Assembly: GCA_035510155.1 (NCBI GenBank) | Contig: DATKHR010000065.1 | Location: forward strand, 8,911-72,910 | DNA: 64,000 nt | Reading direction: 5' to 3' | Source: Vicinamibacterales bacterium | GTDB lineage: Bacteria; Acidobacteriota; Vicinamibacteria; Vicinamibacterales; CAVVIG01 | Shown here: positions 36,227-64,000 of the stretch, in pieces | How positions within the stretch are numbered: position 1 is the first letter of the stretch | Layout of the letters: each line of letters begins with the position of its first letter | Notes under the pieces: generated by a model | Seen by the model: the letters and a program-made list of their open reading frames with translations, nothing else | Databases searched by the model: none | Told to the model about the DNA's origin: nothing | Translations under genes and position numbers: made by a program

Positions 36227-36227
36227 C

Positions 36228-47622: not shown

Positions 47623-48686
47623 CGCGCATCGCTGTCATTCCTGGCGACGGGATCGGCGTCGAGGTGACCGCCGAGGCTCTCAAAGTCCTGCGCCGCGTGG
47701 GCGACGTCTTCGGCCGCCGGTTCGACGTCGAGATGCTGCCCTGGAGCGCCGACTACTATCTCGAAACAGGGGTCACCGTCCCGCCAAACGGCTACGCGAT
47801 GCTGCGGGACGATTTCGACGCGATCTTCATCGGCGCGCTCGGCGATCCGCGCGTGCCGGACAACAGACACGCGCGCGACATCCTGCTCGGCACGAGAGTC
47901 GAGCTCGATCTGTACGTCAACTATCGTCCGGTCAAGCTGCTCGACGAGCGGTTGTGTCCGCTCAAGACTCGAACGCCGGCTGACGTCAATTTCGTGGTCT
48001 TCCGCGAAAACACCGAAGGGCTCTACGTCGGTATCGGCGGCCGGTTCAAGGCGGGGACCGACGATGAGGTTGCGGTGCAGGAAGAGGTGAACACCTACAA
48101 AGGGGTACACCGGATTCTCCGGCACGCCTTCGAGTACGCGCGAGCAAACGGGCGCCGCCGAGTCTGCATGGCGGACAAGAGCAACGCGATGACCGAGGGG
48201 CACGCGCTCTGGCAGCGCGTGTTCAAAAGCGTGTCGGCCGAGTACCCGGATCGGCAATCGAGACACGTGTACATCGACGCGCTCGCCTTGTTGATGGTTC
48301 AGGACCCTTCCCAGTTCGATGTCATCGTCACGAACAACCTCTTCGGCGACATCATCACTGACCTCGGGGCGGCGCTTCAGGGCGGCCTGGGACTCGCGGC
48401 GTCCGGCAACCTGCACCCTGGCCGCACGTCGATGTTCGAGCCGGTGCACGGATCAGCCCCGCCGCTCGCGGGGAAAAACGTGGCGAACCCGATGGGCGCC
48501 ATTCTGTCGGCTGCGCTGATGCTCCAGGCGCTCGGCTTGACGCTCGAAGGCGCGTCGGTCGAGGCCGCCGTGAAGCACGCCGTCGTGAACGGCCAGGGGA
48601 CGAAAGAAATCGGCGGCACGCTCGGCACGGCCGAAACGGGCGATGCCATCGTTCGCGCGATCACGGGGGACCATAGACGGACTTAG
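47619..48686 (+). CDS. isopropylmalate/tartrate (D-malate) dehydrogenase-family oxidative decarboxylase
   Basis: TTG 47619 overlaps the thiolase stop (TTGA). Motifs RIAVIPGDGIG, NLFGDIITDLGAAL and EPVHGSAPPLAGKNVANP. The N-terminal region resembles tartrate dehydrogenases more than LeuB, judged from memory only. Confidence 0.8.
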   Translation: MTRIAVIPGDGIGVEVTAEALKVLRRVGDVFGRRFDVEMLPWSADYYLETGVTVPPNGYAMLRDDFDAIFIGALGDPRVPDNRHARDILLGTRVELDLYVNYRPVKLLDERLCPLKTRTPADVNFVVFRENTEGLYVGIGGRFKAGTDDEVAVQEEVNTYKGVHRILRHAFEYARANGRRRVCMADKSNAMTEGHALWQRVFKSVSAEYPDRQSRHVYIDALALLMVQDPSQFDVIVTNNLFGDIITDLGAALQGGLGLAASGNLHPGRTSMFEPVHGSAPPLAGKNVANPMGAILSAALMLQALGLTLEGASVEAAVKHAVVNGQGTKEIGGTLGTAETGDAIVRAITGDHRRT

Positions 48687-48704
48687 GACCAAGGACCATT
48701 TTCA

Positions 48705-49553
48705 ATGACGATCCAGACCGTCGGCGTGTTGGGTTGCGGCTTGATGGGATCGGGGATTGCCCAAGTGAGCGCGGCGGCCGGCTACCAGACGATTGTTCGC
48801 GAAGTCGACGACAGCCTGCTTGAGAAGGGGCTCGGACGGCTCAAGAAGTCGCTCGAGGACAGCGTGGCGAAAGGGCGAGCGACAGCCGAAGTCCGCGACA
48901 AGACACTTGCCAACCTGTCGGGCACCACGAAGCTCGAGGCTCTGGCAGACTGCGACCTGATCCTGGAGGCCATCGTCGAGAATCTGGAGGCTAAACAGCG
49001 CACCTACGCGGCGCTCGAGGCGATCGCGAGGAATCACACGATCTTCGCGTCAAACACGTCGTCGCTCTGCATCACCGAGCTGGCGGCCGCGACAAAACGG
49101 CCCGACCGTTTCGCCGGGCTTCACTTCTTCAATCCGGTTCCGCGCATGAAGCTCGTCGAAGTCATCCGGGCGTTGACGACCACCGATGAGACCTACCAAA
49201 TGGTGTTCGGGTTCGCCGCGTCGCTCGACAAGGAGCCGATTACGGCGCCGGACCGTCCGGGCTTCATCGTAAACCGCCTGCTCGTGCCCTACCTGCTCGA
49301 CGCGGTTCGCGCGTACGAAAACGGATTGGGCACGCTCGAGGACATCGACAAGGGCATGACCCTCGGCTGCGGCTACCCGATGGGACCGTTCACGCTGCTC
49401 GACTTCGTTGGCCTGGACACGACCTATTTCATCGCGAACATCATGTTCGATGAGTTCCGGGAGCCGGCGTACGCGCCGCCCCCGCTGCTCAAGCGGATGG
49501 TGCTGGCCGGACGCCTGGGGCGGAAGAGCGGCCACGGCTTTTACAAGTACTAA
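48705..49553 (+). CDS. hbd: 3-hydroxybutyryl-CoA (3-hydroxyacyl-CoA) dehydrogenase
   Basis: Rossmann motif VGVLGCGLMGSGIAQ, plus HFFNPVPRMKLVEV and PGFIVNRLL. Confidence 0.92.
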   Translation: MTIQTVGVLGCGLMGSGIAQVSAAAGYQTIVREVDDSLLEKGLGRLKKSLEDSVAKGRATAEVRDKTLANLSGTTKLEALADCDLILEAIVENLEAKQRTYAALEAIARNHTIFASNTSSLCITELAAATKRPDRFAGLHFFNPVPRMKLVEVIRALTTTDETYQMVFGFAASLDKEPITAPDRPGFIVNRLLVPYLLDAVRAYENGLGTLEDIDKGMTLGCGYPMGPFTLLDFVGLDTTYFIANIMFDEFREPAYAPPPLLKRMVLAGRLGRKSGHGFYKY

Positions 49554-50997: not shown

Positions 50998-53865
50998 TCA
51001 GAACTTGAAGTTCGCCCTCAGCACGACCGTCCGCGGCGGCAGGATGGCCGCCGGCGACATGAATTGCTGCAAGGTCTGCGTGATGCCCGTCGTCGGGTCC
51101 GTGAACTTTGCCGCCGGCGTCAGCGAGCGCGCTTGCCAGACCCAATCGGCGTTGAAGATGTTGTCGAAATCTATCGACCCCTCGAGTGAGCGGTTGTTGG
51201 CGAACTTGAACACCTTCCCGACGCGCAGGTCGAGCCGGTTCTCGAAGGGGAGACGATCGGTGCCGATCGGTTCGAGGTTGATGGTCTCCGTAAAGCCAAA
51301 GCCCACGCTGCGGGTAATCTGTCGCGTAATCGGCGGTCCGCTCAGACCGCTGTAGTTGGCGCTGGTGATGATGTCGTACCAGGGCAGCATGTAGATCCCG
51401 GTCAGCTTGAACTGGTTCGGGCGATCGGCATTGCTCGCGCCGCAGCCGCTGCAGCGGGCGTCCGGGCTGATGTTGCCTGACGCGTTGATGAGGTAGTTCG
51501 GAGACACGTCCACAGAGACGTTCGAGATCTCGTTCTTCGAGCGGGTGTACCCGGCGAGCACCGACCAGTTCTTCGTGAACCGCCGCGTGACCGTGATCTC
51601 GAGGCCCTTGTAGCTCTGCAGGACGTTCGGATCGTTGGTGATCACGGTAGAGTTCTTGTTCGAGGTCCGCTGGTAGTACTGAAAGGTGCTGTCGTCAGCC
51701 GTTCCGACCAGGCCGTCGGGACCGGGATCGATCGCCGGCGTGGGCGTTGCGGCGTACGGGTTGTCCTGGATGTACGACGCCTGCGTATTCTTCTCGCGCC
51801 GATACGTGTACACGACACTCAGCCTGGTGTTCGGCACGACTTCGTGGTCCACGCCGAAGCTGTACTCATCGGTGTAGGGGCGGCTGAAATTCGGGTCGAT
51901 CGTCGTCGTCGTCCCGGAGGTCAAGGTGCCCGCCCCAGTCTGTTCGCCCGGCTGGAACTTCAGGTCGCCGTTCGCGTCGTTCCACACGTAGGTCGTGAAG
52001 TAGTTCGAGTTCGGGTTGACGTTGCTGACGCCGCCGCCACCGGTCGACAGGATGTAGTAATAACGTCCCCAGGACGCTTTGGCCGCTGTCCTTCCATCAC
52101 CCATGACGTCGTAGACGCCGCTCACCCGGGGGCCGGCCGTGTGCCAAAGGACGACGTTGCGCACTTCCGGCCAGACGCGCTGAATCGTTGGGTAGTACGC
52201 GCTCGCCGGACTGCTCTGAGCCGGGAGGTAGCCCTCGAGCCGCTCCCACCGGAGACCCGCTGTGAGTGTGAACCGCTTGATCGAGTAGCTGTCCTGCGCG
52301 AAGAGCGCGGTGACGTTGAGCGCCGAGATGTCGATGAGCGGCGTGGCGTAGATTCTCACGCTTTGCGATTGGGGCGTTTTCGTGCTGTCGTAGAACGTCT
52401 GCACATCGTCCACGCGCGTCGTGTTGTTCTGCGTGACGGCGTGCGTGGAGTCGAAACCGAAACGAATCTCGTGGCGGCCGCCAAGCGCCTGGTCGATGTA
52501 GTACTGGCCGGTCGCGTTGGCCTGGTAGCGGTCCCGGTTGCGGATCACCTGAGAGGGGTTGTTCCCGTAAATGATGCCGGTGGCGTTGTCCGTGAGAGAC
52601 TGCTGGTTGCCGCCGTTGAAATAGGTCGGGAACAGAATCTTGTTCACACCGAACCGGGCGTCTACGAACAGGTTCTTGCCGACGACCGAGTTCCACAGCG
52701 CCTGGTAGACGTCGAACCGGTCTTCCTCGTCCACAGTGGAGTCGGTGACCGTCACCGACGCGTTGTTCAGAAGCCGGTTCGGCTTGCTGTAGCGCTGATG
52801 CGAGTAGAAGCCGGTGATCTTGTTGTTCTGATTCACCTGCCAGGTCGCGTTCACGAGGCCGGACGTGATGTTGGTCTGGTCGAGCACGACTTGCGACAAC
52901 TGCACCGGCACGTTCTGATGCACGCGCCAGTCGCGGAACGATCCGAACGCGCGCAGCTTGTTCTGGATGACCGGGCCGCCAATCGTGAAGTTCACGTCGG
53001 AGACAAAATTCGACGTATTGCTGTCCGGGCGAATGCCGTACTGCTGCAGATAAGGGTTGTGATCATTTCTGGCCTGCAGATTGTCCCCGGTCCACGTGAA
53101 GGTCGTCCCGCCGCGCCACGTATCGGCACCGGTCTTGGTCACCATGTTCAGGAAGACGCCCGAGGTCGGCACGGAGATGTCGTGCGCGCCGGTCGAAACC
53201 TGAATATCGTCGAACGCATCGAAATCGTAGTAATAACCCGCGGCGCCAATAGCTGCCGGATCCCCGACATTGATGCCGTTCAGGAACTGAGAATTCTGCG
53301 CACTCGCCGTCCCACGCGCGCTGTAGGTTCCCTGAAGCCCACCCGACGTCCCACCCACGTCAGGGCGGCTTATGACCAGGCCGGGCACCTTGGCTTCGAC
53401 GAGCGCCCAGATATCGCGGCCGCCCGGCGTTCCCTGAATGAGCTGTTCACTCAAGTTCACGCTCACGTTGGCGCTCGTCGTGTCGACCGTCGGTGACGCA
53501 CCGGCCACCGTCACGGTTTCTGCCAACGTCGCCACGGTCAGCTGCATGTCGATGGGCGTCGTCTGACCGACGAGAACCACGATGCCGTCGCGGACGACGG
53601 TCTTGAAGCCGGAGAGCTCGAGCTTGACGGAGTACGTCCCTGGGACGAGCGATGGAAACCTGTAGACCCCGACGGCGTCGGTCACGCCCGTCATCGAACT
53701 GGACACCAGCACCGGACTGCTGATGGTCACCGTGGCGCCCGGCGTCGCGGCGCCCTGCTCGTCGGTGGCCTTCACCAGGATGCTGCCGGTCTGCACCTGA
53801 GCGCTCGCCGACGTTGCGACGCCCGCGAGCGCAAGCACAGCGAGAAACCTGAGCGCGTACTGCAT
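50998..53865 (-). CDS. TonB-dependent-receptor-like outer-membrane protein with N-terminal carboxypeptidase-regulatory-like domain
   Basis: Trimmed to ATG 53865 (MQYALRFLAVLALAGVATSASAQ, SD GAGGAGG). CarboxypepD_reg-like VKATDEQGAATPGATVTISS...GVYRFPSLVPGTYSVKLELSGFK. Long beta-barrel ending in an aromatic residue (..LRANFKF). Confidence 0.85.
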   Translation of the reverse strand: MQYALRFLAVLALAGVATSASAQVQTGSILVKATDEQGAATPGATVTISSPVLVSSSMTGVTDAVGVYRFPSLVPGTYSVKLELSGFKTVVRDGIVVLVGQTTPIDMQLTVATLAETVTVAGASPTVDTTSANVSVNLSEQLIQGTPGGRDIWALVEAKVPGLVISRPDVGGTSGGLQGTYSARGTASAQNSQFLNGINVGDPAAIGAAGYYYDFDAFDDIQVSTGAHDISVPTSGVFLNMVTKTGADTWRGGTTFTWTGDNLQARNDHNPYLQQYGIRPDSNTSNFVSDVNFTIGGPVIQNKLRAFGSFRDWRVHQNVPVQLSQVVLDQTNITSGLVNATWQVNQNNKITGFYSHQRYSKPNRLLNNASVTVTDSTVDEEDRFDVYQALWNSVVGKNLFVDARFGVNKILFPTYFNGGNQQSLTDNATGIIYGNNPSQVIRNRDRYQANATGQYYIDQALGGRHEIRFGFDSTHAVTQNNTTRVDDVQTFYDSTKTPQSQSVRIYATPLIDISALNVTALFAQDSYSIKRFTLTAGLRWERLEGYLPAQSSPASAYYPTIQRVWPEVRNVVLWHTAGPRVSGVYDVMGDGRTAAKASWGRYYYILSTGGGGVSNVNPNSNYFTTYVWNDANGDLKFQPGEQTGAGTLTSGTTTTIDPNFSRPYTDEYSFGVDHEVVPNTRLSVVYTYRREKNTQASYIQDNPYAATPTPAIDPGPDGLVGTADDSTFQYYQRTSNKNSTVITNDPNVLQSYKGLEITVTRRFTKNWSVLAGYTRSKNEISNVSVDVSPNYLINASGNISPDARCSGCGASNADRPNQFKLTGIYMLPWYDIITSANYSGLSGPPITRQITRSVGFGFTETINLEPIGTDRLPFENRLDLRVGKVFKFANNRSLEGSIDFDNIFNADWVWQARSLTPAAKFTDPTTGITQTLQQFMSPAAILPPRTVVLRANFKF

Positions 53866-54089
53866 GCGATACCTCCTCAAAACAGCGTTGTTTCGAGATA
53901 CCCGCAAGAGTTCTAACAGGTTCTGGCAGGCGGAACAACGAGGACGAGCGGACATTTCACGAGAATTTCAACGATCCGAGAGGCGACGTACGGAAACTTG
54001 AATCGAATTGCCTCGATTCAGACAGGAATGTGCCTCATCCGGGCAAATCTGACGAGAATGTCGTCACAATGAGGCGGATGATTTCTCGC

Positions 54090-54124: not shown

Positions 54125-56380
54125 ATGAGCGCACGCGCGGCTTGCAGTCCACAGTCGGCCGCAATACTCCTGTCCGGCTTGATTCTCGCTGTATCGGCGG
54201 CTGGATGCACCGCTCACGCGGTACAAAACGACGGTCGCCACCGACTCACCATCGAGCAACTGATTGATATCCGGCACCCGTCGAACCCCATGTGGAGCCC
54301 TGACGGGCAGTCGGTGGTGTTCGTCTGGGATCGTGCGGGGGTCTCCAAGGTCTTCGTGGCCCGAGCGGCGGAGGCCGGGACAAATGGCGGGCCAGCCCCG
54401 GCACTGCGGGAGTTGTCCGAGGCAGGCGCGACGCTGGCGGGGGCGTTCTGGAGCGCCGACGGCCGCGCCCTGATGATTCCGCGGGGCGGCGACCTCTGGC
54501 GCGTGCCGATCGACGGCCGCGCGGCGTCAGCCGTCTGGACCACGCCGCAAGCCGAGCGGGCCATCACCCCCTCGCCTGACGGCACTCGCGTCGCGTTCGT
54601 TCGGCCCATCGCCGAGCCGGCGACAGGCACGCTGCAGGGCGCCGGTCCCGCGACGGATGGGAGCGACCTCATTGTTCGCTCGCTTGCCGATGGCCACGAG
54701 ACCCGCGTCCTTCGCGCCGACAACCACGCAATCGGCAGCATCAGCTGGTCACCCGACGGTCAGTACCTCGTGGTCGGCGACGCGCCGCGCGGGATCCGCC
54801 ACGATCAAACACCCTCGTACTCCGGCGCGAAAATCATCTACACCATCACTGAAAATGTCCCCGGCGAGACCGTCGTCGTGCCGGCCGCGGGCGGGCAGCC
54901 GCGACACCTTGCGGTAACCGCCAGCGGCTTTGGCGGCAATGCCGCCCGCCGGTGGGTGGACGCCAGACACTTCGTGTTCGACCGCACGTCCCCTGATTTC
55001 AAGAAACGAACAACCTATCTGGTCGACATCGCAGGCGGTGAGCCGAAGGTCTTGCACGAGGACGTCGAAGACAAGTTCTGGAGCGTAACCGGCGACGCCG
55101 GCGCGAACGCGCAGCCGTCGCCCGATGGGAAGTGGATCGCGTTTCTCAGCGATCGCGACGGCTGGGATCACCTCTACGTGATGCCGGCACACGCCGGTTC
55201 GTCGGGCGAGCCGGCCGCGCCCATCCAAATCACGAAGGGGAAGTTCGAAGCCTGGCGCCCGACGTGGTCGCCCGACAGCCAGCGGATCGCGTTCGACGCG
55301 AACGAGCCTGGTCGCTACGGCACTCGTCACCTCTACGTTGCCACCATCGGGAATGATCCGGCGCGCGCGACGATTGCGGCGATGACCACGGGGCGTGGCA
55401 CCAACATCGCCCCGGTCTGGTCGCCTGACGGCAAGCGGATCGTCTATCAGCACACCGATCCGCAGAACTCGGCGGACTTGTATGCGGTCGACACGTCCAC
55501 CAAGCAGGCCACCCGGCTGTCGGATTCCATGCCGATGTCAATGGACCGATCGCAGTTCGTCGAGCCGGAGACGGTACAGTATGCCGGCCCAGACGGGCAG
55601 CAGGTGCCGGCGTGGCTGTTCGTGCCGAAGGGCCTCGATCGCTCGAAAAAGCATCCCGCCATCGTCTGGATTCACGGCGACGGCGTGAACCAGAACTACG
55701 ACGGCTGGCACGTTCAGCGGAACTACGCGGTTTACTACAGCTTCCATCAATACCTGCTCCAACAGGGGTACATCGTCATTGCGCCCGACTATCGCGGGAG
55801 CATTGGTTACGGCCGCGCCTGGCGGGAGGGCGTCTATATGGACGTCGGCGGCAGCGATGCCAAGGACGCCTGGATGGCAGCAAATTATCTGAAGACTCTG
55901 CCGTTCGTGGATACCACGCGGATCGGCGTCTGGGGATTGAGCTACGGCGGGTTCTTCACCCTGATTGCCGTGACCGATCAACCCAAACTGTTCCGCGCGG
56001 CGGTGGACGTGGCAGGTGTGGTGGATTACGCGATGTACTATGATGATCCGTATCACGGCGGTTGGACCGCGAGCCGTATCGGCACGCCGGAGCAGCATCC
56101 GGACGTGTACGCCAAGGCATCGCCGATCTCCAACGTCTCACGGCTCGAGACGCCGCTGCTCGTATTGCACGGCACGGCGGACGTCAACGTTCCGTACTTG
56201 CACTCGGTGCGGCTGATCGATGAGCTCATGAAGAAGGATAAGAGTCATCTCGTGTCGTTCATGACGTATCCAGGCGAGTTCCATTACTTCACGCGCGAGC
56301 ACGTCCTTCGCGATGCGTGGCACCGTGTGGACGATTTCTTTGCTGCGCAGTTGAAGGGCAGCGTGACGACCAACCACTGA
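54125..56380 (+). CDS. S9-family serine peptidase (TolB-like beta-propellers + prolyl-oligopeptidase catalytic domain)
   Basis: 751-aa ORF with a lipoprotein/signal-like N-terminus and repeated WSPDG propeller motifs. Nucleophile GVWGLSYGGFF, then HGTADVNVP and GEFHYF. Confidence 0.88.
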   Translation: MSARAACSPQSAAILLSGLILAVSAAGCTAHAVQNDGRHRLTIEQLIDIRHPSNPMWSPDGQSVVFVWDRAGVSKVFVARAAEAGTNGGPAPALRELSEAGATLAGAFWSADGRALMIPRGGDLWRVPIDGRAASAVWTTPQAERAITPSPDGTRVAFVRPIAEPATGTLQGAGPATDGSDLIVRSLADGHETRVLRADNHAIGSISWSPDGQYLVVGDAPRGIRHDQTPSYSGAKIIYTITENVPGETVVVPAAGGQPRHLAVTASGFGGNAARRWVDARHFVFDRTSPDFKKRTTYLVDIAGGEPKVLHEDVEDKFWSVTGDAGANAQPSPDGKWIAFLSDRDGWDHLYVMPAHAGSSGEPAAPIQITKGKFEAWRPTWSPDSQRIAFDANEPGRYGTRHLYVATIGNDPARATIAAMTTGRGTNIAPVWSPDGKRIVYQHTDPQNSADLYAVDTSTKQATRLSDSMPMSMDRSQFVEPETVQYAGPDGQQVPAWLFVPKGLDRSKKHPAIVWIHGDGVNQNYDGWHVQRNYAVYYSFHQYLLQQGYIVIAPDYRGSIGYGRAWREGVYMDVGGSDAKDAWMAANYLKTLPFVDTTRIGVWGLSYGGFFTLIAVTDQPKLFRAAVDVAGVVDYAMYYDDPYHGGWTASRIGTPEQHPDVYAKASPISNVSRLETPLLVLHGTADVNVPYLHSVRLIDELMKKDKSHLVSFMTYPGEFHYFTREHVLRDAWHRVDDFFAAQLKGSVTTNH

Positions 56381-57736: not shown

Positions 57737-60700
57737 CTAGAAGAGAAACTTCGCCGCGAACTGCACTTGACGCGCCGACCCGGAATCGCCGGTCGGGAAG
57801 CGCGTATTCGAGATCACGCCGAACGAGGTGCTGCCGACCGTGGCGATCCGGCCCGGCTGGCCGAAGTTTGCCTGATTGAACAGGTTGAACACCTCGACGC
57901 GCAGCTGCGCGCGGGACGAGCCCACCAGTCCGATGTTTTTGATCAGCGACAGGTCGGTGTTGCCAAAGCCGGGACCGTACAGGACGTTCCTCGGCATATT
58001 TCCGAAGTGCGCCACTCCGGCTGCGTTATACGGAAGCGCGAAGACCGAGGACGACGTGCACGCGCCGGCAGTGCCTGCCGCCTTCGTCGGATCGCAGACC
58101 GTCGTCCCGTCGAACCACTGATAGCTGACCGGGAAACCGTTCTTGTCCAGATTCGGCGTCGCGACGATCGAGGGCAGCGGGCCGATCAGATCGGGCCGCA
58201 CCGACGAGACGCCCGTAATCGTCGAGATGTTCGTGATGACATTGAATGGATTTCCGGTCTGCAGCTGTTCGACGACGACCACCTGCCAGCCGTCCTTCCA
58301 GCGGTTGCCCGAGAACGGCAGATCGTAGCTGGCGTTGAGCGCGAAGCGATGCCGGACGTCGAAGTCCGACGGTCCGACGCTGCCGGCCAGGTTGGTGCTG
58401 TCCTGAAGCGAGCCGTTACCGCCGGCGCCCGTGCCGTCGTACGAGTTGGTGTCGGTCGACTTCGACAGCGTATACGAGCCCTGCAGCTGGAGTCCATGCG
58501 TCAGCCGGCGATTCGCCGTGATCCAGAGGCCCTTGTAATTCGACCAGCCGAGGCTCGTCGACTCGATGATGTTGCCGAGCGCGGTGCCCGGAAGAATCGG
58601 GCTGGTGGCCGAAAGTTTGGGATACGGTCGGACCGTCCCGCCGGGCGTGACGAACTGGTTGAGGTTGATCGGAATGCGCTGCCGATCGCCGTGGGACCCG
58701 AAATAGCCGACCATCACGCCCGTGCCGCCGAACTCGCGTTCGACGTTGACGTTCCACGACTGCATCCGTGCCGGGAGGAAGTTCGGATCCGTGAACGACG
58801 GCGTGAGGGACGCAGCCGACGCGCCGCCGATCGCATTGTCAAGCTTGATGTTGCTTGATGTCGTCCCGGAGGCCTGCGCGGAGAACGGCGACACGATCGG
58901 CGGGTTCCCGGTTTCACCCGTGAAGTAGCCGGTGTTGCTCTGATTCACCAGAACCGCATAGGCGCCACGGACGACGGTCTTGCCGTCTGCTTTGGGATTC
59001 CAGATAACGCCGAGGCGTGGCTGGAAGTCGCTGCCGTTCTTGGTCACCTGCGTGAAGCCGTTTGTGCCGATCTGAATCAATGAAACCGTCGCGGGTTCGA
59101 ACGTGACGAGCTTGTTGTCCTGCTCGGTCGGCGACGGGAGGTAGTCGTAGCGCAGACCGAGATCGAACTTGAGCGTCGATCCCACGGAAATCGAGTCCTG
59201 GACGAAGCCACCGATGGCGTTCACGTACACGTTGAACGCCTGGGTGCCAAGCGTGATGCCAAACACGCTGCCGAATCCTTGCTGGAACGCCTGAACGCTC
59301 GGATAGGTGAAGCGCCCGGGATCCTGACTGAACCCGTAGTGTTTGACGTGTCTGACTTCGCCGCCGAACTTGATGATCTGGTTTCCATGGAGGTAGGTCG
59401 CCGTATCACCGACCGCAAACGTCGTCACTTCGCGTCCGCTCGGAAAACCGGCCGGGCCGCCGAAGTTCAGGTTGGGACCCGAGACGGTGATCGACGGCAG
59501 GGCGATCGGCATCTCAGTCTGGCCTACGTTGATCCCCAGTGCATTCGTATCGACGAGAGTGTTGGGGATGAAGGTAATGTGGATGCGATTGAAACCGCCG
59601 CGGACTTCGTTCACGAGCGCCGGGCTGAAGACGTGGGTCTCGTTGATCGTCAGGATCTGACGGTGGCCCCCGCGTGTATCGCTGTAGCCGGCGACAGTCT
59701 GTCCCTGCGCGTTCGACTCGATGCGGGAGTCGGACTGGAACGCGTAGTAGACATGGAGCTCGTCGCTCTGCCGCAGACTGTTGCGCGAGTCGATGGTGTA
59801 CTGGTCGATCGTGACCGGCGCCAGCGGCGAGCTGATGGCGCGGGTGCCGGTGAGGTCGTTCGCGGCAGGTATGTACTGAAGCAGATTCTTCGCGACCGGA
59901 TCGGTGACCCCCGCACGCTGGGCGTTCGTCAGTGTCCCCGAGTTGAGATCCACGCCCTGCTCGTGCCGGAGGCCTTCGTAGCTGCCGAAATAGAATGACC
60001 GGTTCGAGACGATCGCCCCACCGAGGTTCGCGCCGAACTGCTTGCGGTTGAACACCGACTTCGGCGTGACACTCCCGTCGGGCTGAATGCTGGGCGGATT
60101 GAAATAGTTGCGCGAGTCGAGCGCATCGTTCCGGTAGAAATCGAACGCCTCGCCGTGCAACTGGTTCGCGCCCGAGCGGGTCGCGACGTTGACGATCGCG
60201 CCCGAGTTCCGGCCGTATTCCGCGCTGAACGTCGAGTTGTCGACCTTGAATTCAGACACGGTGTTGATCGACGGCTGGAACGTCACCTGGCTGTTCGACA
60301 GGTCGTTCAGATTGATGCCGTTCACCATCATGTTGACCGCGGTCTCGCGGTTGCCGGCCGACATGAACGAGAACGATCCCTGGCCGCGCAGCGGCGCGCT
60401 GAGCCCCGCGTTCTGGGGCGAGGTCGACCCGCCGGGCATCAGCGGACCGAGATCCACGAAATGCCGCCCGTTCAGTGGAATCTCCTGGACGGTTTTCTCA
60501 GCCATCGACTGGCCAACCGAAACGGTCGCCGTGTCGATGAGAGGCGACGACCCGATGACAGTGACATTCTCGGTCAGCGCAGCGACGCCCAGCCTGAAGT
60601 TGAGCACGGCGGTCTGCGCCGGTCCGAGGTCGGTCTCGCCGTTCTGATCCTTGAAGCCTTCGAGGTGCGCGACGACGAGATAGTGGCCCGGGTCGAGCGA

Positions 60701-60898
60701 CGCGGCAACGTACTGGCCGGCTGAATCCGAGACCGCCGTACGCTCGATGCCAGTCGCGGCATTCCGGATCGTCACGGTCACGCCCGGCATGACCGCGTTT
60801 TGTGCGTCAGTGACCGCTCCCTGAAGAGTAGCCGTGGACTGCGCTCTGACCGGAGCCGCGACGAATGTGAGGGCCAAGGCGAGACAGACCAGCTTCAT
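57737..60898 (-). CDS. TonB-dependent-receptor-like outer-membrane protein with N-terminal carboxypeptidase-regulatory-like domain
   Basis: 1053-aa ORF with signal MKLVCLALALTFVAAPVRAQ. CarboxypepD_reg-like GAVTDAQNAVMPGVTVTIRN...GQYVAASLDPGHYLVVAHLEGFK, a plug-like segment and C-terminal ..FAAKFLF. Confidence 0.88.
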   Translation of the reverse strand: MKLVCLALALTFVAAPVRAQSTATLQGAVTDAQNAVMPGVTVTIRNAATGIERTAVSDSAGQYVAASLDPGHYLVVAHLEGFKDQNGETDLGPAQTAVLNFRLGVAALTENVTVIGSSPLIDTATVSVGQSMAEKTVQEIPLNGRHFVDLGPLMPGGSTSPQNAGLSAPLRGQGSFSFMSAGNRETAVNMMVNGINLNDLSNSQVTFQPSINTVSEFKVDNSTFSAEYGRNSGAIVNVATRSGANQLHGEAFDFYRNDALDSRNYFNPPSIQPDGSVTPKSVFNRKQFGANLGGAIVSNRSFYFGSYEGLRHEQGVDLNSGTLTNAQRAGVTDPVAKNLLQYIPAANDLTGTRAISSPLAPVTIDQYTIDSRNSLRQSDELHVYYAFQSDSRIESNAQGQTVAGYSDTRGGHRQILTINETHVFSPALVNEVRGGFNRIHITFIPNTLVDTNALGINVGQTEMPIALPSITVSGPNLNFGGPAGFPSGREVTTFAVGDTATYLHGNQIIKFGGEVRHVKHYGFSQDPGRFTYPSVQAFQQGFGSVFGITLGTQAFNVYVNAIGGFVQDSISVGSTLKFDLGLRYDYLPSPTEQDNKLVTFEPATVSLIQIGTNGFTQVTKNGSDFQPRLGVIWNPKADGKTVVRGAYAVLVNQSNTGYFTGETGNPPIVSPFSAQASGTTSSNIKLDNAIGGASAASLTPSFTDPNFLPARMQSWNVNVEREFGGTGVMVGYFGSHGDRQRIPINLNQFVTPGGTVRPYPKLSATSPILPGTALGNIIESTSLGWSNYKGLWITANRRLTHGLQLQGSYTLSKSTDTNSYDGTGAGGNGSLQDSTNLAGSVGPSDFDVRHRFALNASYDLPFSGNRWKDGWQVVVVEQLQTGNPFNVITNISTITGVSSVRPDLIGPLPSIVATPNLDKNGFPVSYQWFDGTTVCDPTKAAGTAGACTSSSVFALPYNAAGVAHFGNMPRNVLYGPGFGNTDLSLIKNIGLVGSSRAQLRVEVFNLFNQANFGQPGRIATVGSTSFGVISNTRFPTGDSGSARQVQFAAKFLF

Positions 60899-60952
60899 GC
60901 ACCCAACCTCCTACTCTCGTGCAAACGGACAAACGTCCGAAATTGGGAGGTG

Positions 60953-60958
60953 ATTGTA
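60953..60958 (-). promoter_or_regulatory. -10 box candidate (TACAAT) for the 57737..60898 OMP gene
   Basis: Minus strand reads GCATACAATCACC, ~55 nt upstream of ATG 60898, followed by SD GGAGG. Confidence 0.3.
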
Positions 60959-60980
60959 TGCGCTCGTCTGGCGATTGAGA

Positions 60981-61017
60981 CAACGAAAAACAAGAAGGCC
61001 GGCAGAATCTGCCGGCC
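60981..61017 (-). terminator. rho-independent terminator of the radical-SAM gene
   Basis: Minus strand has a 9-bp perfect stem GGCCGGCAG-ATT-CTGCCGGCC followed by TTCTTGTTTTTCG, ~40 nt after the stop at 61056. Confidence 0.75.
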
Positions 61018-61055
61018 CGAACGGAAAAAAAGCGTCGGAATCTGGAAGTTTGGAT

Positions 61056-63347
61056 CTAGACGATCGGCTTGTGCAGAACCTCCACGGGCTGCGAAGCCTT
61101 CTTCTTGCCGCCCAGCCCCTGAATCTGGAGGGTCGGCTGCTCCTTCAGCACGTGCTGCCGGTACAGCTTTGCCATTTCTTCGTGATGTGCCGCCTCACGC
61201 GCAACTTCCTCGGGCGCCTTCGTTCGTTCCGGCGTCACTCCCGCCGAATGCGCGCGCGCCCTTAGCTTTTCTTCACGCGCGTTCTTGGCGATCCCGAGCA
61301 GGTCGAGGTCGGTTTGAGCACCAGCCCGGACCGCCTCTTCGTTCAGCACGAGCGAATGCTCGGTCGAGTTGAGAGGCACGCTCTTGTTGCCGGCGAAGAT
61401 CTCGTGACGGCCGTGCTCCTCGTACCACCTGGTCAGCGTGGCGGTCATGTGCATCTTCTCGATGATGTTGCGCCAGCCGAGGCCCGTGTTGTACGCGCAG
61501 AAGGAAATCTCGCCCTGCTGCGTGGCATAAGGAATGATGCACATCTCGGTGCGTCGGAAGTCGTAGTTGAAGAGATCCTGGAACCACATGCCGGCAATGA
61601 ACAGGAAGTTCCAGCGGTCGGCCCGCCGCTTGTCGATGTCGGCCGAGGTGCGATCGCCTTCGACCCTGCCGTACTTGCCCCTTTCCGCCGACCGGGTCGC
61701 GCCAAACGTCTTGTCGAACTTCTTCAGCAGGTCGACGAGCTTGAAGTGCCTCGGCGACTTGAACGAATCGTAGTTGCGCATCAGCGCCAGCGCCATGCCG
61801 ACGTTCGACAGCAAGCGCCCTCGGCCCGCGTCGGTCACAGCGGCCACGTCCTTGGCGAGCTGCTCGGCCTTGAGGAACGCGGTGACCGGAACGGCCTCCT
61901 TCGTCTGCTTGTCGATCATGACCGCCATGCCAACGCCGCAGTTCGGGTGGCAGCCGCACGTCAGCTGACCGAACTCCTTTTCGGCGCCGTGCGTCACGTC
62001 AGCCCAGTCGGTAAAGGTGCCCATGAACGAGATCGGGAACCAGTCGCGAGTCGGCTCGCCGATGCCCGTCTGCGATTTCACGTCGTGGGCGAGATGGGAG
62101 AGCGTGTAGCGCTGCGCGGCGCGGCGCTCCGGAGTGACCTCCTCGTCGCGGCCGGTGAAGCTGACCGGTTGAAACGAGAGGAAGTTGATCTTCTTCGGGT
62201 TGTCGAGCGCGAACTCGATGACGCGGCCGACCTGCTCGTTGTTGACGCCGTTCACGATCGTGATGACTGGCACGATGTCGACGCCGGCGTTGTAGAGGTT
62301 CTCAATCGCCCGGAGCTTGACGTCGAACAGGTTCCCGACGCGGCGGTGCGAGTTGGCGGCGTTGCCGATGCCGTCGAACTGCAGGTAGGCGTACCGAAGT
62401 CCCGCTTCGGCCGCAGCCTTCGCAAACTCCGGGTTCTTCGCGAACTCGATGCCGTTGGTGGCGGCCTGGACGCTGTTGTAGCCGACCTTCCGTGCATAGC
62501 GCACCGCGTCGAGGAAGTGGGGGGAAATCGTCGGTTCACCGCCGGAGAACTGCACGGACATCTGCCGCCGCGGTTTGATCGTGATCGCGTTGTCCAGCAC
62601 CGTTTTGATGTCTTCCCACGTCAGCTCGTGGACGAACCCGACCTGGTTCGCGTCCATGAAGCACGGGTCGCACATCATGTTGCAGCGGTTGGTCAGGTCG
62701 ACGGTCAGCACCGACCCGCGGCCGTGCTGGATCGTGCTGCTGCCATGGTTGTGCAGGGTCTCGTCGTTGTGCGCGCGGATATCGCGGCCGGGAAAGACTT
62801 CTTCCAGGTGCTTGAAGAACGCCGTGTCGATGGCCATCACGTCCTCGAAGCGGCCATGGATGGGGCAGTCCTTCACCATCATGATCTTGCCGTCGCGCTC
62901 GAGAATCGTCGCCTTGATCTCGCCGACCTTCTCGTTGAGCAGGTCGTTGACGTCCTTCTTGCCGTCGAGAATGGCCTGGCGCGCCTCGCGCGTACAGGTC
63001 GGGCAGAGCGAGTCGGTCTCGCGCGGCCAGCCAAGCGGCGGCTTGGTCTTTTCGTAAGACTTCAGCAAAGGCTTGTCCGACCATTTCGGGACAAACGACG
63101 GCCGCTGATTGATCTTGTTCAGATTGTTGAACACGACCCATGCGCCGTTGGCCGCTATCGACAAACCCTTCTCGACGTACTTGATCGGCTTGTGCATGCG
63201 CCAAATGATAGAAGATACGCGCCTTAGTTCGATTACGTTTTTCGCGAACGGGTTGTAGGGAGTGCCGAGCGGGCAGCAGGGCCACCGGGTGGCCAATAGA
63301 CGACCGAAATGGTCGGGTATCTCCGTCCCGTTTTCGGGCAAGGCCAT
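61056..63347 (-). CDS. large radical-SAM enzyme, tetraether-lipid-synthase (Tes/GDGT-MAS)-like architecture
   Basis: Radical-SAM CxxxCxxC (LTNRCNMMCDPCF). N-terminal knuckle pair SLCPTC...DCPIHGRF. Downstream Cys clusters LTCGCHPNCG and MCIIPY..SFCAYN. Charged ~110-aa C-terminal tail. ATG 63197 (MHKPIKYVEKG) is an alternative start. Confidence 0.85.
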   Translation of the reverse strand: MALPENGTEIPDHFGRLLATRWPCCPLGTPYNPFAKNVIELRRVSSIIWRMHKPIKYVEKGLSIAANGAWVVFNNLNKINQRPSFVPKWSDKPLLKSYEKTKPPLGWPRETDSLCPTCTREARQAILDGKKDVNDLLNEKVGEIKATILERDGKIMMVKDCPIHGRFEDVMAIDTAFFKHLEEVFPGRDIRAHNDETLHNHGSSTIQHGRGSVLTVDLTNRCNMMCDPCFMDANQVGFVHELTWEDIKTVLDNAITIKPRRQMSVQFSGGEPTISPHFLDAVRYARKVGYNSVQAATNGIEFAKNPEFAKAAAEAGLRYAYLQFDGIGNAANSHRRVGNLFDVKLRAIENLYNAGVDIVPVITIVNGVNNEQVGRVIEFALDNPKKINFLSFQPVSFTGRDEEVTPERRAAQRYTLSHLAHDVKSQTGIGEPTRDWFPISFMGTFTDWADVTHGAEKEFGQLTCGCHPNCGVGMAVMIDKQTKEAVPVTAFLKAEQLAKDVAAVTDAGRGRLLSNVGMALALMRNYDSFKSPRHFKLVDLLKKFDKTFGATRSAERGKYGRVEGDRTSADIDKRRADRWNFLFIAGMWFQDLFNYDFRRTEMCIIPYATQQGEISFCAYNTGLGWRNIIEKMHMTATLTRWYEEHGRHEIFAGNKSVPLNSTEHSLVLNEEAVRAGAQTDLDLLGIAKNAREEKLRARAHSAGVTPERTKAPEEVAREAAHHEEMAKLYRQHVLKEQPTLQIQGLGGKKKASQPVEVLHKPIV

Positions 63348-63389
63348 CCTTCATAATTCACGCGAAATTGGACGGTAGAGGAGGTGCGA

Positions 63390-64000
63390 GTGGACGTAAA
63401 AGCGCTCTCGGTTCCGACAATTGCCGCAACGGCGTGGCTGATGCATTTGTCTCTCGCGGTTTTCGCGAGTCAAACGCCGCAGGGTCCGGCGTCGCCGCCG
63501 CGCCTCACGCTCGTCAACGCCAACATCGTCAACGTCAGGGACGGCAGCATCAGACGCGGCGCCACCATTGAGCTGTCCGGGGGGCGCATCGCGTCTATCG
63601 GTGCATCGAGCGGGACCGCGACCGGCGCACGCGTGCTCGATCTGAAGGGCAAATACGTGCTGCCGGGCCTGATCGATGCGCATACTCACGCCTCGGATTT
63701 CGCCGCGTTCCGCCGCGCCCTCGAATCGGGCGTCACGACGGTTCGGAGCGCCGGGGTGTCGAACTTCGTCGATGTCGGCTTTCATCGGCTTGTCAGCGAC
63801 GGCGTGGTCGCGGGTCCCGACGTCATCTCGGCCGGATACCACGTCCGTCCCCAGATGGCGCAGGAAGCGTTTCTCGAGCATCCGGAACTCGCCGACCTGA
63901 TGTCCGGCGTGACGACGATCGAGCGGATCCGCAAGGCCGTGCAGATGAACCTGTCGCACGGCGTCAACTGGATCAAGGTTCTCGCGACCGATCGCGCGGG
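63390..64000 (+). CDS. secreted amidohydrolase family protein (3' end runs off the right edge)
   Basis: Absent from the ORF track. My translation from GTG 63390 (SD GAGGAGG upstream) gives VDVKALSVPTIAATAWLMHLSLAVFASQ...LTLVNANIVNVRDGSIRRGATIELSGGRIASIG...KGKYVLPGLIDAHTHA. The frame is open to the window end. Confidence 0.8.
   Translation, partial: MDVKALSVPTIAATAWLMHLSLAVFASQTPQGPASPPRLTLVNANIVNVRDGSIRRGATIELSGGRIASIGASSGTATGARVLDLKGKYVLPGLIDAHTHASDFAAFRRALESGVTTVRSAGVSNFVDVGFHRLVSDGVVAGPDVISAGYHVRPQMAQEAFLEHPELADLMSGVTTIERIRKAVQMNLSHGVNWIKVLATDRA

What the first reader, a model, noticed from the sequence alone, without database searches (positions are those of the whole stretch)
61056..63347. 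Monocistronic large radical-SAM enzyme with Tes/GDGT-MAS-like architecture: candidate bacterial membrane-spanning (brGDGT / iso-diabolic acid) lipid synthase
Seen in the sequence: a 763-aa ORF with the canonical CxxxCxxC motif (CNMMCDPC). An N-terminal knuckle pair precedes it (SLCPTC, then KDCPIHGRFED). Two further Cys-rich segments follow (LTCGCHPNCGVG; MCIIPYATQQGEISFCAYN) that could hold auxiliary Fe-S clusters, and there is a ~110-aa highly charged C-terminal tail. The gene has its own strong rho-independent terminator (60981-61017), so it is not part of an obvious operon.

Established knowledge: archaeal tetraether synthase (Tes, also called GDGT-MAS) is a radical-SAM enzyme with extra Fe-S clusters and a rubredoxin-like site. 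It joins two lipid tails C-C. Acidobacteria make membrane-spanning iso-diabolic acid and branched GDGTs, and the bacterial enzyme remains only partly resolved.

Inference: the motif order here matches that family as I remember it (tESxCPxC...dgkv.m.K.CP.HG.f..., then the radical-SAM core). In an Acidobacteria-like genome this makes it a prime candidate.
Basis: partly seen in the sequence, partly recalled or inferred. Interest (0 to 1): 0.7.

Follow-up and report, generated by a model that had tools for sequence, protein, structure and literature searches.

The report
Acidobacterial Tes-like lipid-coupling radical-SAM enzyme
This stand-alone gene in a soil Acidobacteria genome encodes a real but divergent relative of the archaeal enzyme that joins two lipid tails into membrane-spanning lipids; it is a reasonable candidate for the bacterial equivalent, but that idea was published in 2022 and is still untested.

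Summary
The ORF is real, but the protein starts at M51 (ATG 63197), giving 713 aa rather than 763. It is monocistronic: the upstream neighbour is divergent and a strong terminator lies at 61018-60986.

It is a full-length homologue of tetraether synthase Tes/GDGT-MAS. PDB 7TOL gives E=1e-64, the AF2 model matches 7TOM with TM 0.87, and the NCBIfam Tes profile is covered 2-483/486. It is not a Tes equivalog (314 bits against a 450-bit cutoff).

It belongs to a very conserved Acidobacteriota subfamily ("type B", about 700 aa, 73-92% identity across classes; the length and divergence of S. usitatus Acid_2410). This subfamily keeps three of GDGT-MAS's four metal sites:
- the radical-SAM cluster;
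- the rubredoxin-like Cys3His site, with a 22-aa insertion;
- the catalytic C-terminal [4Fe-4S] cluster ligands (3 Cys plus Met).

It lacks the N-terminal [4Fe-4S] cluster motif CX3CX2CX2H in 0 of ~316 members. A conserved His-rich segment sits in that position.

No lipid genes are nearby, and no neighbour is conserved across 80 loci. The function (tail-to-tail coupling of iso-C15 chains to give iso-diabolic acid/brGDGT cores) is inferred only. It was already proposed by Zeng 2022 and Halamka 2022 and had not been confirmed by 2025-26.

Verdict: a divergent variant of a known kind, of moderate interest.

The parts
61056..63197 (-). Corrected CDS of the Tes-like radical-SAM protein (713 aa plus stop).
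   Evidence: stop codons just upstream of the conserved MHKPIKY Met in most of 80 loci; homologues 690-712 aa.
63018..63197 (-). Subfamily-specific N-terminal extension (residues 1-60). It holds a predicted helix at 3-29 and the conserved motif PxWSDKPLLKSYEKTKPPLGWPRE. Bona fide Tes lacks this region.
   Evidence: pLDDT 81-92; mean identity 0.74; no TM segment; only moderately amphipathic.
62823..63017 (-). Rubredoxin-like Cys3His knuckle domain (C65, C68 ... C111, H114). It corresponds to C9X2C12X20C33X2H36 of GDGT-MAS but carries a 22-aa insertion (residues ~71-92, window 62922-62987).
   Evidence: Pfam PF23545. Ligand assignment. Knuckle gap is 42 against 20 in true Tes. Both knuckles are present in 318/318 type-B sequences.
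62718..62780 (-). Conserved His-rich, Cys-free segment (IRAHNDETLHNHGSSTIQHGR, residues 140-160). It occupies the position of the N-terminal [4Fe-4S] cluster motif CX3CX2CX2H of GDGT-MAS/Tes.
   Evidence: 0 of ~316 type-B sequences have the motif; 12/12 bona fide Tes representatives do; mean identity 0.85; LHxHG in 317/318.
62163..62711 (-). Radical-SAM core (residues 163-345). It contains the CX3CX2C motif C172/C176/C179 (window 62661-62684), GGEPT at 219, TNG at 247, and the SAM-lid loop FQPVSFTGR at 342. The lid loop equals Q268/S271/R275 of GDGT-MAS.
61458..61970 (-). C-terminal auxiliary-cluster and lipid-pocket domain (residues ~410-580). Ligand equivalents of [4Fe-4S]C are C420 (HPNCG), C553 (MCIIPY) and C567 (FCAYN), plus M537 (AGMWFQD), which equals the labile Met439 of GDGT-MAS.
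   Evidence: all four motifs in 317-318 of 318 type-B sequences; mean identity 0.94 for residues 530-580.
61278..61457 (-). Conserved subfamily-specific C-terminal extension (residues 581-640), including WYEEHGRHEIFAG.
   Evidence: mean identity 0.76; motif in 311/318 type B and 0/12 type A.
61059..61277 (-). Variable, charged, low-confidence C-terminal tail (residues 641-713; 14 K/R and 10 D/E).
   Evidence: pLDDT ~31-75 per 10-residue block; mean identity 0.38, many gaps.
60986..61018 (-). Intrinsic terminator: GGGCCGGCAG-ATT-CTGCCGGCC followed by TTCTTGTTTTT.
63205..63210 (-). -10-like box TATCAT, 7 nt upstream of the ATG at 63197. This suggests a leaderless or near-leaderless mRNA. It is part of the conserved TCTATCATTT element.
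   Evidence: Inference only; no TSS data.
63244..63274 (-). Two phased direct repeats of the operator-like motif tGCCCGTTCGC, 21 nt apart (GCCCGCTCGG at 63274-63265 and ACCCGTTCGC at 63253-63244).
   Evidence: A phased pair occurs in 16 of 77 homologous upstream regions against 0.26% of background 260-nt tiles.

Best explanation
The gene encodes a 713-aa radical-SAM enzyme of a distinct, Acidobacteriota-wide subfamily ('type B') of the tetraether-synthase (Tes/GDGT-MAS) family.

Shown:
- It shares the whole GDGT-MAS fold.
- It keeps the CX3CX2C radical-SAM cluster motif, the SAM-lid loop, the rubredoxin-like Cys3His site and all four ligand positions (3 Cys plus the labile Met) of the C-terminal [4Fe-4S] cluster.
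- It has lost the surface N-terminal [4Fe-4S] cluster.
- It has gained an N-terminal helix and extension, a 22-aa knuckle insertion and a conserved C-terminal extension.

Inferred mechanism, by analogy with GDGT-MAS:
1. Reductive cleavage of SAM gives a 5'-deoxyadenosyl radical.
2. That radical abstracts H from the terminal methyl of a lipid tail.
3. The lipid radical is parked as a C-S adduct on the C-terminal cluster.
4. A second SAM activates a second tail, which attacks to form a C(sp3)-C(sp3) bond.

The likely substrates are the isopropyl-terminated iso-C15 chains of bacterial glycerolipids. The products would be iso-diabolic-acid-type membrane-spanning lipids, which form the core of brGDGTs.

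The gene is expressed as a monocistronic unit. In its Vicinamibacterales clade it probably sits under a transcription factor that binds phased GCCCGTTCGC repeats.
For: Homology and fold:
- NCBIfam Tes profile covered 2-483/486, E=1.5e-93.
- 7TOL E=1.4e-64 over query residues 143-642.
- AF2 model pTM 0.81.
- Foldseek 7TOM TM 0.87 (normalised to target), rmsd 3.5 A. All other PDB hits match only the radical-SAM core.

Catalytic residues:
- Ligand assignments come from Lloyd et al. 2022, mapped through.
- The RS motif, GGEPT, FQPVSFTGR lid, HPxCG, CxIxY, FCxYN and MWFQD are each present in 316-318 of 318 type-B sequences.

Selection:
- 73-92% identity across Vicinamibacterales, Bryobacterales, Korobacteraceae/Terriglobia and Blastocatellia.
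- At least 596 GTDB species encode a relative of the query by tblastn; the best 80 are type-B genes.

Distribution and literature:
- These lineages correspond to subdivisions 1, 3, 4 and 6, which are the ones reported to make iso-diabolic acid (PMC13274423).
- Acidobacteria lack the alternative synthase Mss (PMC13159169).
- E. aggregans makes iso-DA and brGDGT, and its single Tes homologue has type-B-like similarity (32%, 4e-61).
- iso-C15 and phytanyl tails have the same terminal structure (Zeng 2022).
Against: - No experiment exists for any bacterial Tes homologue.
- No lipid-biosynthesis gene is adjacent here or conserved next to the gene in 80 loci.
- The protein is below NCBIfam's Tes cutoff and lacks one cofactor site, so its redox wiring must differ from GDGT-MAS.
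- Sahonero-Canavesi et al. found Tes homologues in only 3 of 14 iso-DA-producing acidobacterial genomes and suggested an alternative pathway. Type B lies only just above their thresholds (29-34% identity, E 1e-55 to 1e-64 against MJ0619), so absence is not established.
- S. usitatus and K. versatilis also carry a closer Tes homologue ('type A', 40-42% to MA_1486) that could be the real tetraether synthase.
- Terriglobus roseus carries a sister form ('type C'). In most type-C sequences, including the T. roseus protein, the C-terminal cluster cysteines are lost.
- I could not establish presence or absence in cultured, lipid-typed strains.
Confidence: 0.5

Rival explanations
1. Type B is a Tes-derived paralogue that performs a different radical reaction on lipids or other hydrophobic substrates. 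Examples would be another C-C cross-link, coupling at a different carbon, or a modification of hopanoids or other polyprenyl compounds. Under this reading the real acidobacterial membrane-spanning-lipid synthase is the closer 'type A' Tes homologue or an unrelated enzyme.
For: - Two paralogues coexist in S. usitatus, and type A is far closer to archaeal Tes (type A 35-45% against type B 29-34% identity to MJ0619).
- Type B has subfamily-specific extensions and a changed cofactor set.
- A published survey reports that Tes homologues do not track iso-DA production in Acidobacteria.
- Paralogous rSAM lipid enzymes with different chemistry are common (Gms, Grs).
Against: - The complete catalytic apparatus for the Tes reaction (RS cluster, lid, C-cluster 3 Cys plus Met) is invariant in type B.
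- Type B is far more widespread in Acidobacteriota than would be expected for a niche modification.
- Per Zeng 2022, E. aggregans has only one Tes homologue, at type-B-level similarity, yet makes brGDGT.
Confidence: 0.33
2. The protein is a non-lipid enzyme. This would fit the JGI annotation '7,8-dihydro-6-hydroxymethylpterin dimethyltransferase' inherited from the original MJ0619 assignment, or another cofactor or small-molecule radical-SAM function.
For: Several JGI annotations of family members carry this name. The Pfam domain name (HMPTM) reflects the same history.
Against: [quoted passage not shown]
- Fold and ligand conservation point to the same lipid-coupling architecture.
- No pterin or methanopterin gene context was found.
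Confidence: 0.04
3. The gene is a decaying or non-functional relic of an archaeal tes acquired by horizontal transfer.
For: One cofactor site has been lost. The sister type C shows further loss of cluster ligands.
Against: - Purifying selection is extreme: RS core 0.90 and C-cluster region 0.94 mean identity across classes.
- The ORF is intact in 77 of 80 loci.
- A conserved promoter/operator and a dedicated terminator are present.
Confidence: 0.02

Closest known systems
GDGT-MAS / tetraether synthase Tes (MJ0619, PDB 7TOL/7TOM; MA_1486; NCBIfam NF045702)
   Same: - Full-length fold (TM 0.87 to 7TOM).
- Same domain order: rubredoxin-like knuckles, then the radical-SAM 3/4 TIM barrel, then the C-terminal cluster and lipid-pocket domain.
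- CX3CX2C motif and FQPVSFTGR SAM lid.
- C-terminal [4Fe-4S] ligands, including the labile Met.
- The predicted chemistry is therefore the same: terminal C(sp3)-C(sp3) coupling via a cluster-bound C-S intermediate.
   Different: - 29-34% identity; 314 bits against a 450-bit equivalog cutoff.
- No N-terminal [4Fe-4S] cluster motif; a conserved His-rich segment sits in its place.
- 22-aa insertion in the rubredoxin-like domain.
- ~60-aa N-terminal extension and ~130-aa C-terminal extension.
- Bacterial host, mostly aerobic soil lineages.
- The presumed substrate is iso-C15 acyl/alkyl glycerolipid, not archaeol.
- Activity is untested.
Acid_2410 (Q025C7) of Ca. Solibacter usitatus and the E. aggregans Tes homologue (literature candidates for brGDGT synthesis)
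   Same: - Same length class (714 aa) and same level of similarity to archaeal Tes (30-32% identity, E about 1e-61).
- Bryobacterales/Solibacter-labelled MAG orthologues are 74-77% identical to the window protein.
   Different: - Orthology to Acid_2410 is inferred from length, similarity level and taxon, because the sequence itself was not available to the tools.
- The window's gene comes from an uncultured Vicinamibacterales-like genome (subdivision 6).
Acid_5929-type ('type A') bacterial Tes homologues
   Same: Same superfamily. They also occur in Acidobacteria and are also proposed for brGDGT synthesis.
   Different: - Type A is ~545 aa and 40-42% identical to MA_1486.
- The type-A-like representatives examined here score above the Tes cutoff and keep the CX3CX2CX2H N-cluster motif and the short knuckle spacing.
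- The window protein has none of these features.
Mss, membrane-spanning lipid synthase of Thermotoga maritima / Thermoanaerobacter ethanolicus
   Same: Mss is a radical-SAM enzyme shown to couple fatty-acyl tails into diabolic acids. This is the functional analogue of what is proposed here, and it is described as remotely related to Tes.
   Different: - It is a different radical-SAM family.
- No mss homologues are reported in Acidobacteria.
- No Mss sequence was available here for direct comparison.
Terriglobus roseus-type ('type C') Tes-like proteins (WP_014786616.1)
   Same: Sister group: 43% identity, and it shares the long knuckle insertion, loss of the N-cluster motif and the C-terminal W..GRH extension.
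   Different: - ~625 aa.
- Most members have lost the C-terminal cluster cysteines (HxxCG in 2-3 of ~115).
- They carry a C..C..H.H motif where type B has HNDE..LHxHG.

Membership tests
Tes / GDGT-MAS (tetraether synthase sensu stricto) | Radical-SAM CX3CX2C cluster motif plus SAM-binding elements | tested here: met
   C172/C176/C179, GGEPT and the FQPVSFTGR lid are present. Pfam Radical_SAM E=1.2e-19.
Tes / GDGT-MAS (tetraether synthase sensu stricto) | N-terminal rubredoxin-like mononuclear Fe site CX2C...CX2H | tested here: met
   C65, C68, C111 and H114 are present. PF23545 E=5.6e-14. The spacing is 42 rather than 20 residues because of an insertion.
Tes / GDGT-MAS (tetraether synthase sensu stricto) | N-terminal auxiliary [4Fe-4S] cluster ligated by CX3CX2C plus His (C73/C77/C80/His in MJ0619) | tested here: not met
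   There is no Cys in the 45 residues before the RS motif. The motif is in 0 of ~316 type-B sequences and in 12/12 bona fide Tes representatives.
Tes / GDGT-MAS (tetraether synthase sensu stricto) | C-terminal auxiliary [4Fe-4S] cluster with 3 Cys plus a labile Met (Met439) | tested here: met
   C420, C553, C567 and M537 align to the GDGT-MAS positions and are conserved in 317-318 of 318 sequences. Cluster binding itself was not measured.
Tes / GDGT-MAS (tetraether synthase sensu stricto) | Score at or above the curated equivalog cutoff (NF045702, 450 bits) | tested here: not met
   314.1 bits. Bona fide representatives P0184, P0187 and P0193 score 474-545.
Tes / GDGT-MAS (tetraether synthase sensu stricto) | Whole-chain structural similarity to 7TOL/7TOM | tested here: met
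   Foldseek E=5e-36, TM 0.87 (normalised to target), 563 aligned columns. The model is predicted, with pTM 0.81.
Tes / GDGT-MAS (tetraether synthase sensu stricto) | Catalyses tail-to-tail C-C coupling of glycerolipid chains | not testable with these tools
   Requires expression or knockout plus lipid MS. The literature reports no test of a bacterial homologue.
TrsS radical-SAM (seleno)protein (NF045646) | Score at or above the curated cutoff (490 bits) | tested here: not met
   209 bits.
Mss membrane-spanning lipid synthase (Thermotoga / Thermoanaerobacter) | Sequence homology to the confirmed Mss proteins (six conserved blocks, per Sahonero-Canavesi 2022) | not tested
   No Mss sequence or profile is available in the tools. 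The literature reports no mss homologues in Acidobacteria.
SPASM/twitch peptide-maturase radical-SAM enzymes | C-terminal SPASM domain with CX9-15GX4C...CX2CX5CX3C motifs; best hits to maturases | tested here: not met
   Hits to SPASM families cover only the RS core (residues ~205-420) at 27-73 bits, against cutoffs of 265-650. The C-terminal domain instead aligns with GDGT-MAS.

The most novel reading that the evidence does not exclude
Type B is the long-sought iso-diabolic-acid / brGDGT-core synthase of Acidobacteria. On this reading it is a streamlined three-cofactor Tes derivative, with the surface [4Fe-4S] cluster replaced by a His-rich element, perhaps as an adaptation to oxic soils. It would act on iso-C15 glycerolipids and be controlled by an environmental-signal-responsive regulator through phased GCCCGTTCGC operators. 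The closer 'type A' Tes homologue, known from Solibacter and Koribacter, would then have a separate role, such as ether-substrate coupling.
Probability: 0.3. Interest if true: 0.8.

Novelty: new variant of a known kind. Interest (0 to 1): 0.45.

Why it matters
brGDGTs are among the most widely used terrestrial palaeotemperature and pH proxies, but the enzyme that builds their membrane-spanning core in Acidobacteria has not been demonstrated.

This analysis does not discover the candidate; it was flagged in 2022. It does sharpen the question in three ways:
- The form that appears across the four iso-DA-producing acidobacterial lineages is a distinct, extremely conserved subfamily. It has a defined start, three predicted metal sites instead of four, and its own extensions.
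- This subfamily sits right at the similarity thresholds used in published gene surveys, so it can be miscounted.
- Acidobacteria hold at least three Tes-like types (A, B, C), which should be tested and counted separately in metagenomic 'brGDGT potential' studies.

The report also gives a concrete construct (ATG 63197 to stop 61056) and predictions for biochemical tests: about 8 Fe in clusters plus 1 mononuclear Fe.

Tried and rejected
- **763-aa ORF as the protein.** Rejected in favour of M51.
- **Genomic-context support.** I clustered all ORFs in 80 loci with 8-kb flanks. Nothing recurs in more than 12 loci, and the recurrent neighbours are QueG, MsrPQ-like proteins, an amidohydrolase, GTP cyclohydrolase I and a pyridine-nucleotide oxidoreductase, none lipid-related. 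A Pfam survey of 40 ORFs across the window found housekeeping genes only.
- **RNA element in the 5' region.** Rfam found nothing in 60800-64000 at E<=1.
- **Linking type B to cultured, lipid-typed strains.**
  - Two further protein searches (L048 and P0135 as queries) and two cluster look-ups returned almost only MAG or metagenome proteins. The one exception was T. roseus, which is type C.
  - The single genome-collection scan shows only the top 80 of at least 596 hits.
  - The Sahonero-Canavesi supplement is not held, and the Sinninghe Damste 2011 paper is not held.
- **AFDB fold search for named UniProt orthologues.** The library was unavailable.
- **Ligand geometry in the AF2 model.** Coordinates are not exposed to the sandbox.
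- **N-terminal helix as a membrane anchor.** The hydrophobic-moment analysis was inconclusive and no TM segment was found.
- **My first regex for the N-cluster motif** mis-assigned the RS motif, because the N-cluster motif is itself CX3CX2C. It was corrected.
Full report
**Observation**

Pfam finds a Radical_SAM domain (residues 218-380 of the 763-aa reading, E=1.2e-19). It also finds the 'HMPTM N-terminal zinc ribbon' PF23545 over the two knuckles (E=5.6e-14).

A strong intrinsic terminator follows the stop codon: a 10-bp stem with 8 G-C pairs plus a T-tract at 61018-60986. The next gene downstream is a 1053-aa outer-membrane beta-barrel/CarboxypepD_reg protein with its own GGAGG. The upstream neighbour is a divergently transcribed amidohydrolase (+ strand, GTG 63390 preceded by GAGGAGG). 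The 'monocistronic' description is therefore correct.

**Start codon**

In 80 related loci from GTDB genomes, most tblastn matches begin at query residue ~51. Translating upstream of the conserved Met of MHKPIKY shows a stop codon within a few codons in most loci, and unrelated 'peptides' in the rest. Database homologues are 690-712 aa. The protein therefore starts at ATG 63197 and is 713 aa. The extra 50 codons of the long ORF overlap the promoter region.

**What it is**

The protein matches NCBIfam's Tes equivalog model over essentially the whole profile (positions 2-483 of 486, E=1.5e-93). It scores 314 bits against a curated cutoff of 450.

The only strong PDB match is GDGT-MAS (MJ0619, 7TOL/7TOM), with E=1.4e-64 over residues 143-642. 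The next hit is MoaA at 7e-06, over the radical-SAM core only.

An AlphaFold2 model (pTM 0.81, mean pLDDT 80) superposes on 7TOM with TM 0.87 (normalised to target) and rmsd 3.5 A. Every other PDB hit covers only the core barrel.

**Cofactor sites**

Lloyd et al. 2022 (PMC9433317) describe four metal sites in GDGT-MAS:
- a rubredoxin-like Fe (C9X2C12X20C33X2H36);
- an N-terminal [4Fe-4S] cluster (C73, C77, C80 plus His);
- the radical-SAM cluster;
- a C-terminal [4Fe-4S] cluster with a labile Met439. This cluster carries the C-S intermediate during C-C bond formation.

I mapped these through the HMMER alignment and a 20-sequence alignment (A1). The results, in 713-aa numbering:

| GDGT-MAS site | Window protein | Status |
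|---|---|---|
| Rubredoxin-like Fe | C65, C68, C111, H114 | Kept, with a 22-aa insertion |
| Radical-SAM cluster | C172, C176, C179, plus the SAM-lid loop FQPVSFTGR | Kept |
| C-terminal [4Fe-4S] | C420, C553, C567, M537 | Kept |
| N-terminal [4Fe-4S] | IRAHNDETLHNHGSSTIQHGR | Cys-free, His-rich segment in its place |

The two C-terminal 'Cys-rich segments' of the finding thus form one cluster site, and one of GDGT-MAS's two auxiliary clusters is missing.

**Subfamilies**

An exhaustive HMMER search of 1.84 billion representatives gave 617 clusters at E<=1e-30. NCBIfam scores, motif censuses and BLAST against MJ0619 together define three types.

| | Type A (bona fide Tes) | Type B (this gene) | Type C (T. 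roseus-like) |
|---|---|---|---|
| Length | ~500-550 aa | ~700 aa | ~625 aa |
| NCBIfam Tes score | 474-545 bits | 314 bits | 239 bits (P0135) |
| Identity to MJ0619 | 35-45% | 29-34% | ~27% |
| N-cluster motif CX3CX2CX2H | 12/12 | 0 of ~316 | Absent; many carry a C..C..H.H pattern instead |
| Knuckle spacing | 20 | 42 | 41 |
| C-terminal cluster ligands | Present | 317-318 of 318 | HxxCG in 2-3 of ~115 |
| Other | | LHxHG in 317/318; W..EHGRH extension in 311/318 | 43% identical to type B |

Type C includes Terriglobus roseus WP_014786616.1. P0136 is an intermediate form (46% identical to the query, 414 bits).

**Taxonomy and conservation**

The window's nearest relatives are Vicinamibacterales and other Acidobacteriota MAGs at 84-92% identity. 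Type B is 73-78% identical even in Bryobacterales, Korobacteraceae/Terriglobia and Blastocatellia.

Mean identity to the window protein, by region, across 75 orthologues:

| Region | Mean identity |
|---|---|
| N-terminal extension | 0.74 |
| His-rich segment | 0.85 |
| Radical-SAM core | 0.90 |
| C-terminal cluster region | 0.94 |
| Residues 581-640 | 0.76 |
| Residues 641-713 | 0.38 |

This is an enzyme under very strong purifying selection, not a relic.

**Context**

There is no lipid-biosynthesis neighbour. The window is a housekeeping chromosomal region: mreC/PBP2/rodA/RNase G, TsaD, a SurA-like protein, a PQQ dehydrogenase, ABC transporters, and a thiolase/3-hydroxyacyl-CoA dehydrogenase group 12-15 kb away. 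Across 80 loci no neighbouring gene family recurs in more than 12 loci, and the recurrent ones are unrelated to lipids. Context therefore neither supports nor contradicts the proposed function.

**Literature**

- Zeng et al. 2022 (PMC8941075) reported 456 bacterial Tes homologues. They explicitly proposed the acidobacterial ones (Koribacter 42%, Solibacter 40%, E. aggregans 32% identity to MA_1486) as brGDGT synthase candidates.
- Halamka et al. 2022 (PMC10087280) list two S. usitatus homologues and propose that one or both make tetraethers:
  - Acid_5929: 545 aa, 40.2% identity, E=1e-139.
  - Acid_2410: 714 aa, 30.1% identity, E=4e-62.
  The window protein has the length and divergence of Acid_2410.
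- Sahonero-Canavesi et al. 2022 (PMC13159169) identified a different radical-SAM enzyme, Mss, in Thermotoga and Thermoanaerobacter. They found no mss in Acidobacteria. They detected Tes homologues in only 3 of 14 iso-DA-producing acidobacterial genomes at >=30% identity and E<=1e-50, and suggested an alternative pathway.
- Type B lies just above those thresholds against MJ0619 (median 31.9% identity, E 1e-55 to 1e-64), and type C lies below them. That count cannot be read as clean absence or presence of type B.
- Papers from 2025-2026 still state that bacterial Tes homologues are experimentally unconfirmed.

**Mechanism**

Shown: the fold and all residues needed for the GDGT-MAS reaction, except the surface N-terminal cluster.

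Inferred:
1. SAM cleavage at the radical-SAM cluster.
2. H-abstraction from a terminal methyl of a lipid tail.
3. Capture of the lipid radical on a sulfide of the C-terminal cluster.
4. A second SAM-dependent activation and C-C bond formation.

The substrate is likely the isopropyl-terminated iso-C15 chains of bacterial glycerolipids, whose termini are structurally identical to phytanyl termini (Zeng 2022). The product would be iso-diabolic-acid-type membrane-spanning lipids.

Type-B genes occur in lineages corresponding to subdivisions 1, 3, 4 and 6, which are those reported to make iso-DA. Acidobacteria also lack Mss. Both observations favour this reading. The coexistence of a closer paralogue in some species, the missing cofactor, the lack of context and the 3-of-14 survey count against it.

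I put the specific lipid-coupling function at about 0.5. Membership of the Tes superfamily is near certain.

**Side observation**

Upstream of the ATG the window carries two copies of an operator-like motif (GCCCGCTCGG at 63274-63265 and ACCCGTTCGC at 63253-63244) exactly 21 nt apart. A -10-like TATCAT follows at 63210-63205, only 7 nt before the ATG.

The same architecture, with 2-3 copies of tGCCCGTTCGC spaced 20-21 nt followed by TCTATCATTT, recurs in Vicinamibacteria-type loci. A phased pair is present in 16 of 77 upstream regions, against 0.26% of background tiles. In some loci the -10 box abuts the ATG, which suggests a leaderless mRNA. In others a 55-80-nt leader with an AGGAGA Shine-Dalgarno sequence intervenes. 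This suggests regulated expression through a transcription factor that binds direct repeats; the factor is unknown.

**Verdict**

The gene represents a distinct three-cofactor variant of a known enzyme kind. Interest is moderate. It bears on a long-standing open question, but the candidate has been known since 2022, and nothing here beyond conserved catalytic residues ties it to the lipid phenotype.

Noticed in passing
window 63205-63274 (minus strand); also L001-L008, L018, L020, L021, L023, L026, L036, L046 upstream of the gene: Phased direct repeats of tGCCCGTTCGC (2-3 copies, 20-21 nt apart) are followed by a conserved TCTATCATTT (-10-like). A phased pair occurs in 16 of 77 homologous upstream regions against 0.26% of background tiles. 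This looks like an operator array for an unknown transcription factor.
   Followed up: partly
window 63195-63210; L001, L002 versus L003-L008, L021: In the window, L001 and L002 the -10-like box lies 7 nt before the ATG, which suggests a leaderless mRNA with no Shine-Dalgarno sequence. In sister loci a 55-80-nt leader with AGGAGA is inserted between the same -10 box and the ATG. In L006 and L008 that leader includes a GGGGCCGTACCCTTTT hairpin-like stretch.
   Followed up: partly
P0135 (Terriglobus roseus WP_014786616.1) and P0401-P0519: A sister 'type C' Tes-like subfamily (~625 aa) has lost the C-terminal [4Fe-4S] cysteines in most members (HxxCG in 2-3 of ~115). Many members carry a C..C..H.H pattern where type B has its His-rich segment. 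This implies a different or lost chemistry in some subdivision-1 Acidobacteria.
   Followed up: partly
L003, L008, L015; P0317, P0399: Near-identical type-B genes (78-96%) sit in MAGs labelled Betaproteobacteria, proteobacterium, Bifidobacteriaceae, Verrucomicrobiae or Binatia. Several 'Acidobacteriaceae' MAG proteins also share 90% clusters with 'Bryobacteraceae' ones. These are probably binning or labelling errors rather than transfer.
   Followed up: no
(annotations of family members): Public annotation of this subfamily is inconsistent. NCBI names it 'radical SAM protein'. JGI variously uses 'tetraether lipid synthase', '7,8-dihydro-6-hydroxymethylpterin dimethyltransferase' (the superseded MJ0619 function) or 'uncharacterized radical SAM...'.
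   Followed up: no
window 11351-12184 (+): A 277-aa SAM-dependent methyltransferase has a weak match to the cyclopropane/mycolic-acid synthase family (CMAS, E=1.2e-06). It lies 50 kb from the Tes-like gene, and no link was established.
   Followed up: no
window 46414-49553 (+): Three adjacent genes encode a thiolase, an isocitrate/isopropylmalate dehydrogenase-family protein and a 3-hydroxyacyl-CoA dehydrogenase. This is a fatty-acid or branched-chain catabolism-like trio 12-15 kb from the gene of interest.
   Followed up: no
window 12580-14724 (+), 37815-39374 (-), 35039-36532 (-), 43328-44911 (+): Several long ORFs (497-714 aa) have no Pfam match at E<=1e-5. Some may be shadow ORFs in this 63% GC sequence, and others may be uncharacterised proteins.
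   Followed up: no
window 57737-60898 (-) and 50998-53955 (-): Two large CarboxypepD_reg plus outer-membrane beta-barrel (TonB-dependent-receptor-like) proteins, typical of Acidobacteriota, flank an S9 peptidase gene (54125-56380).
   Followed up: no
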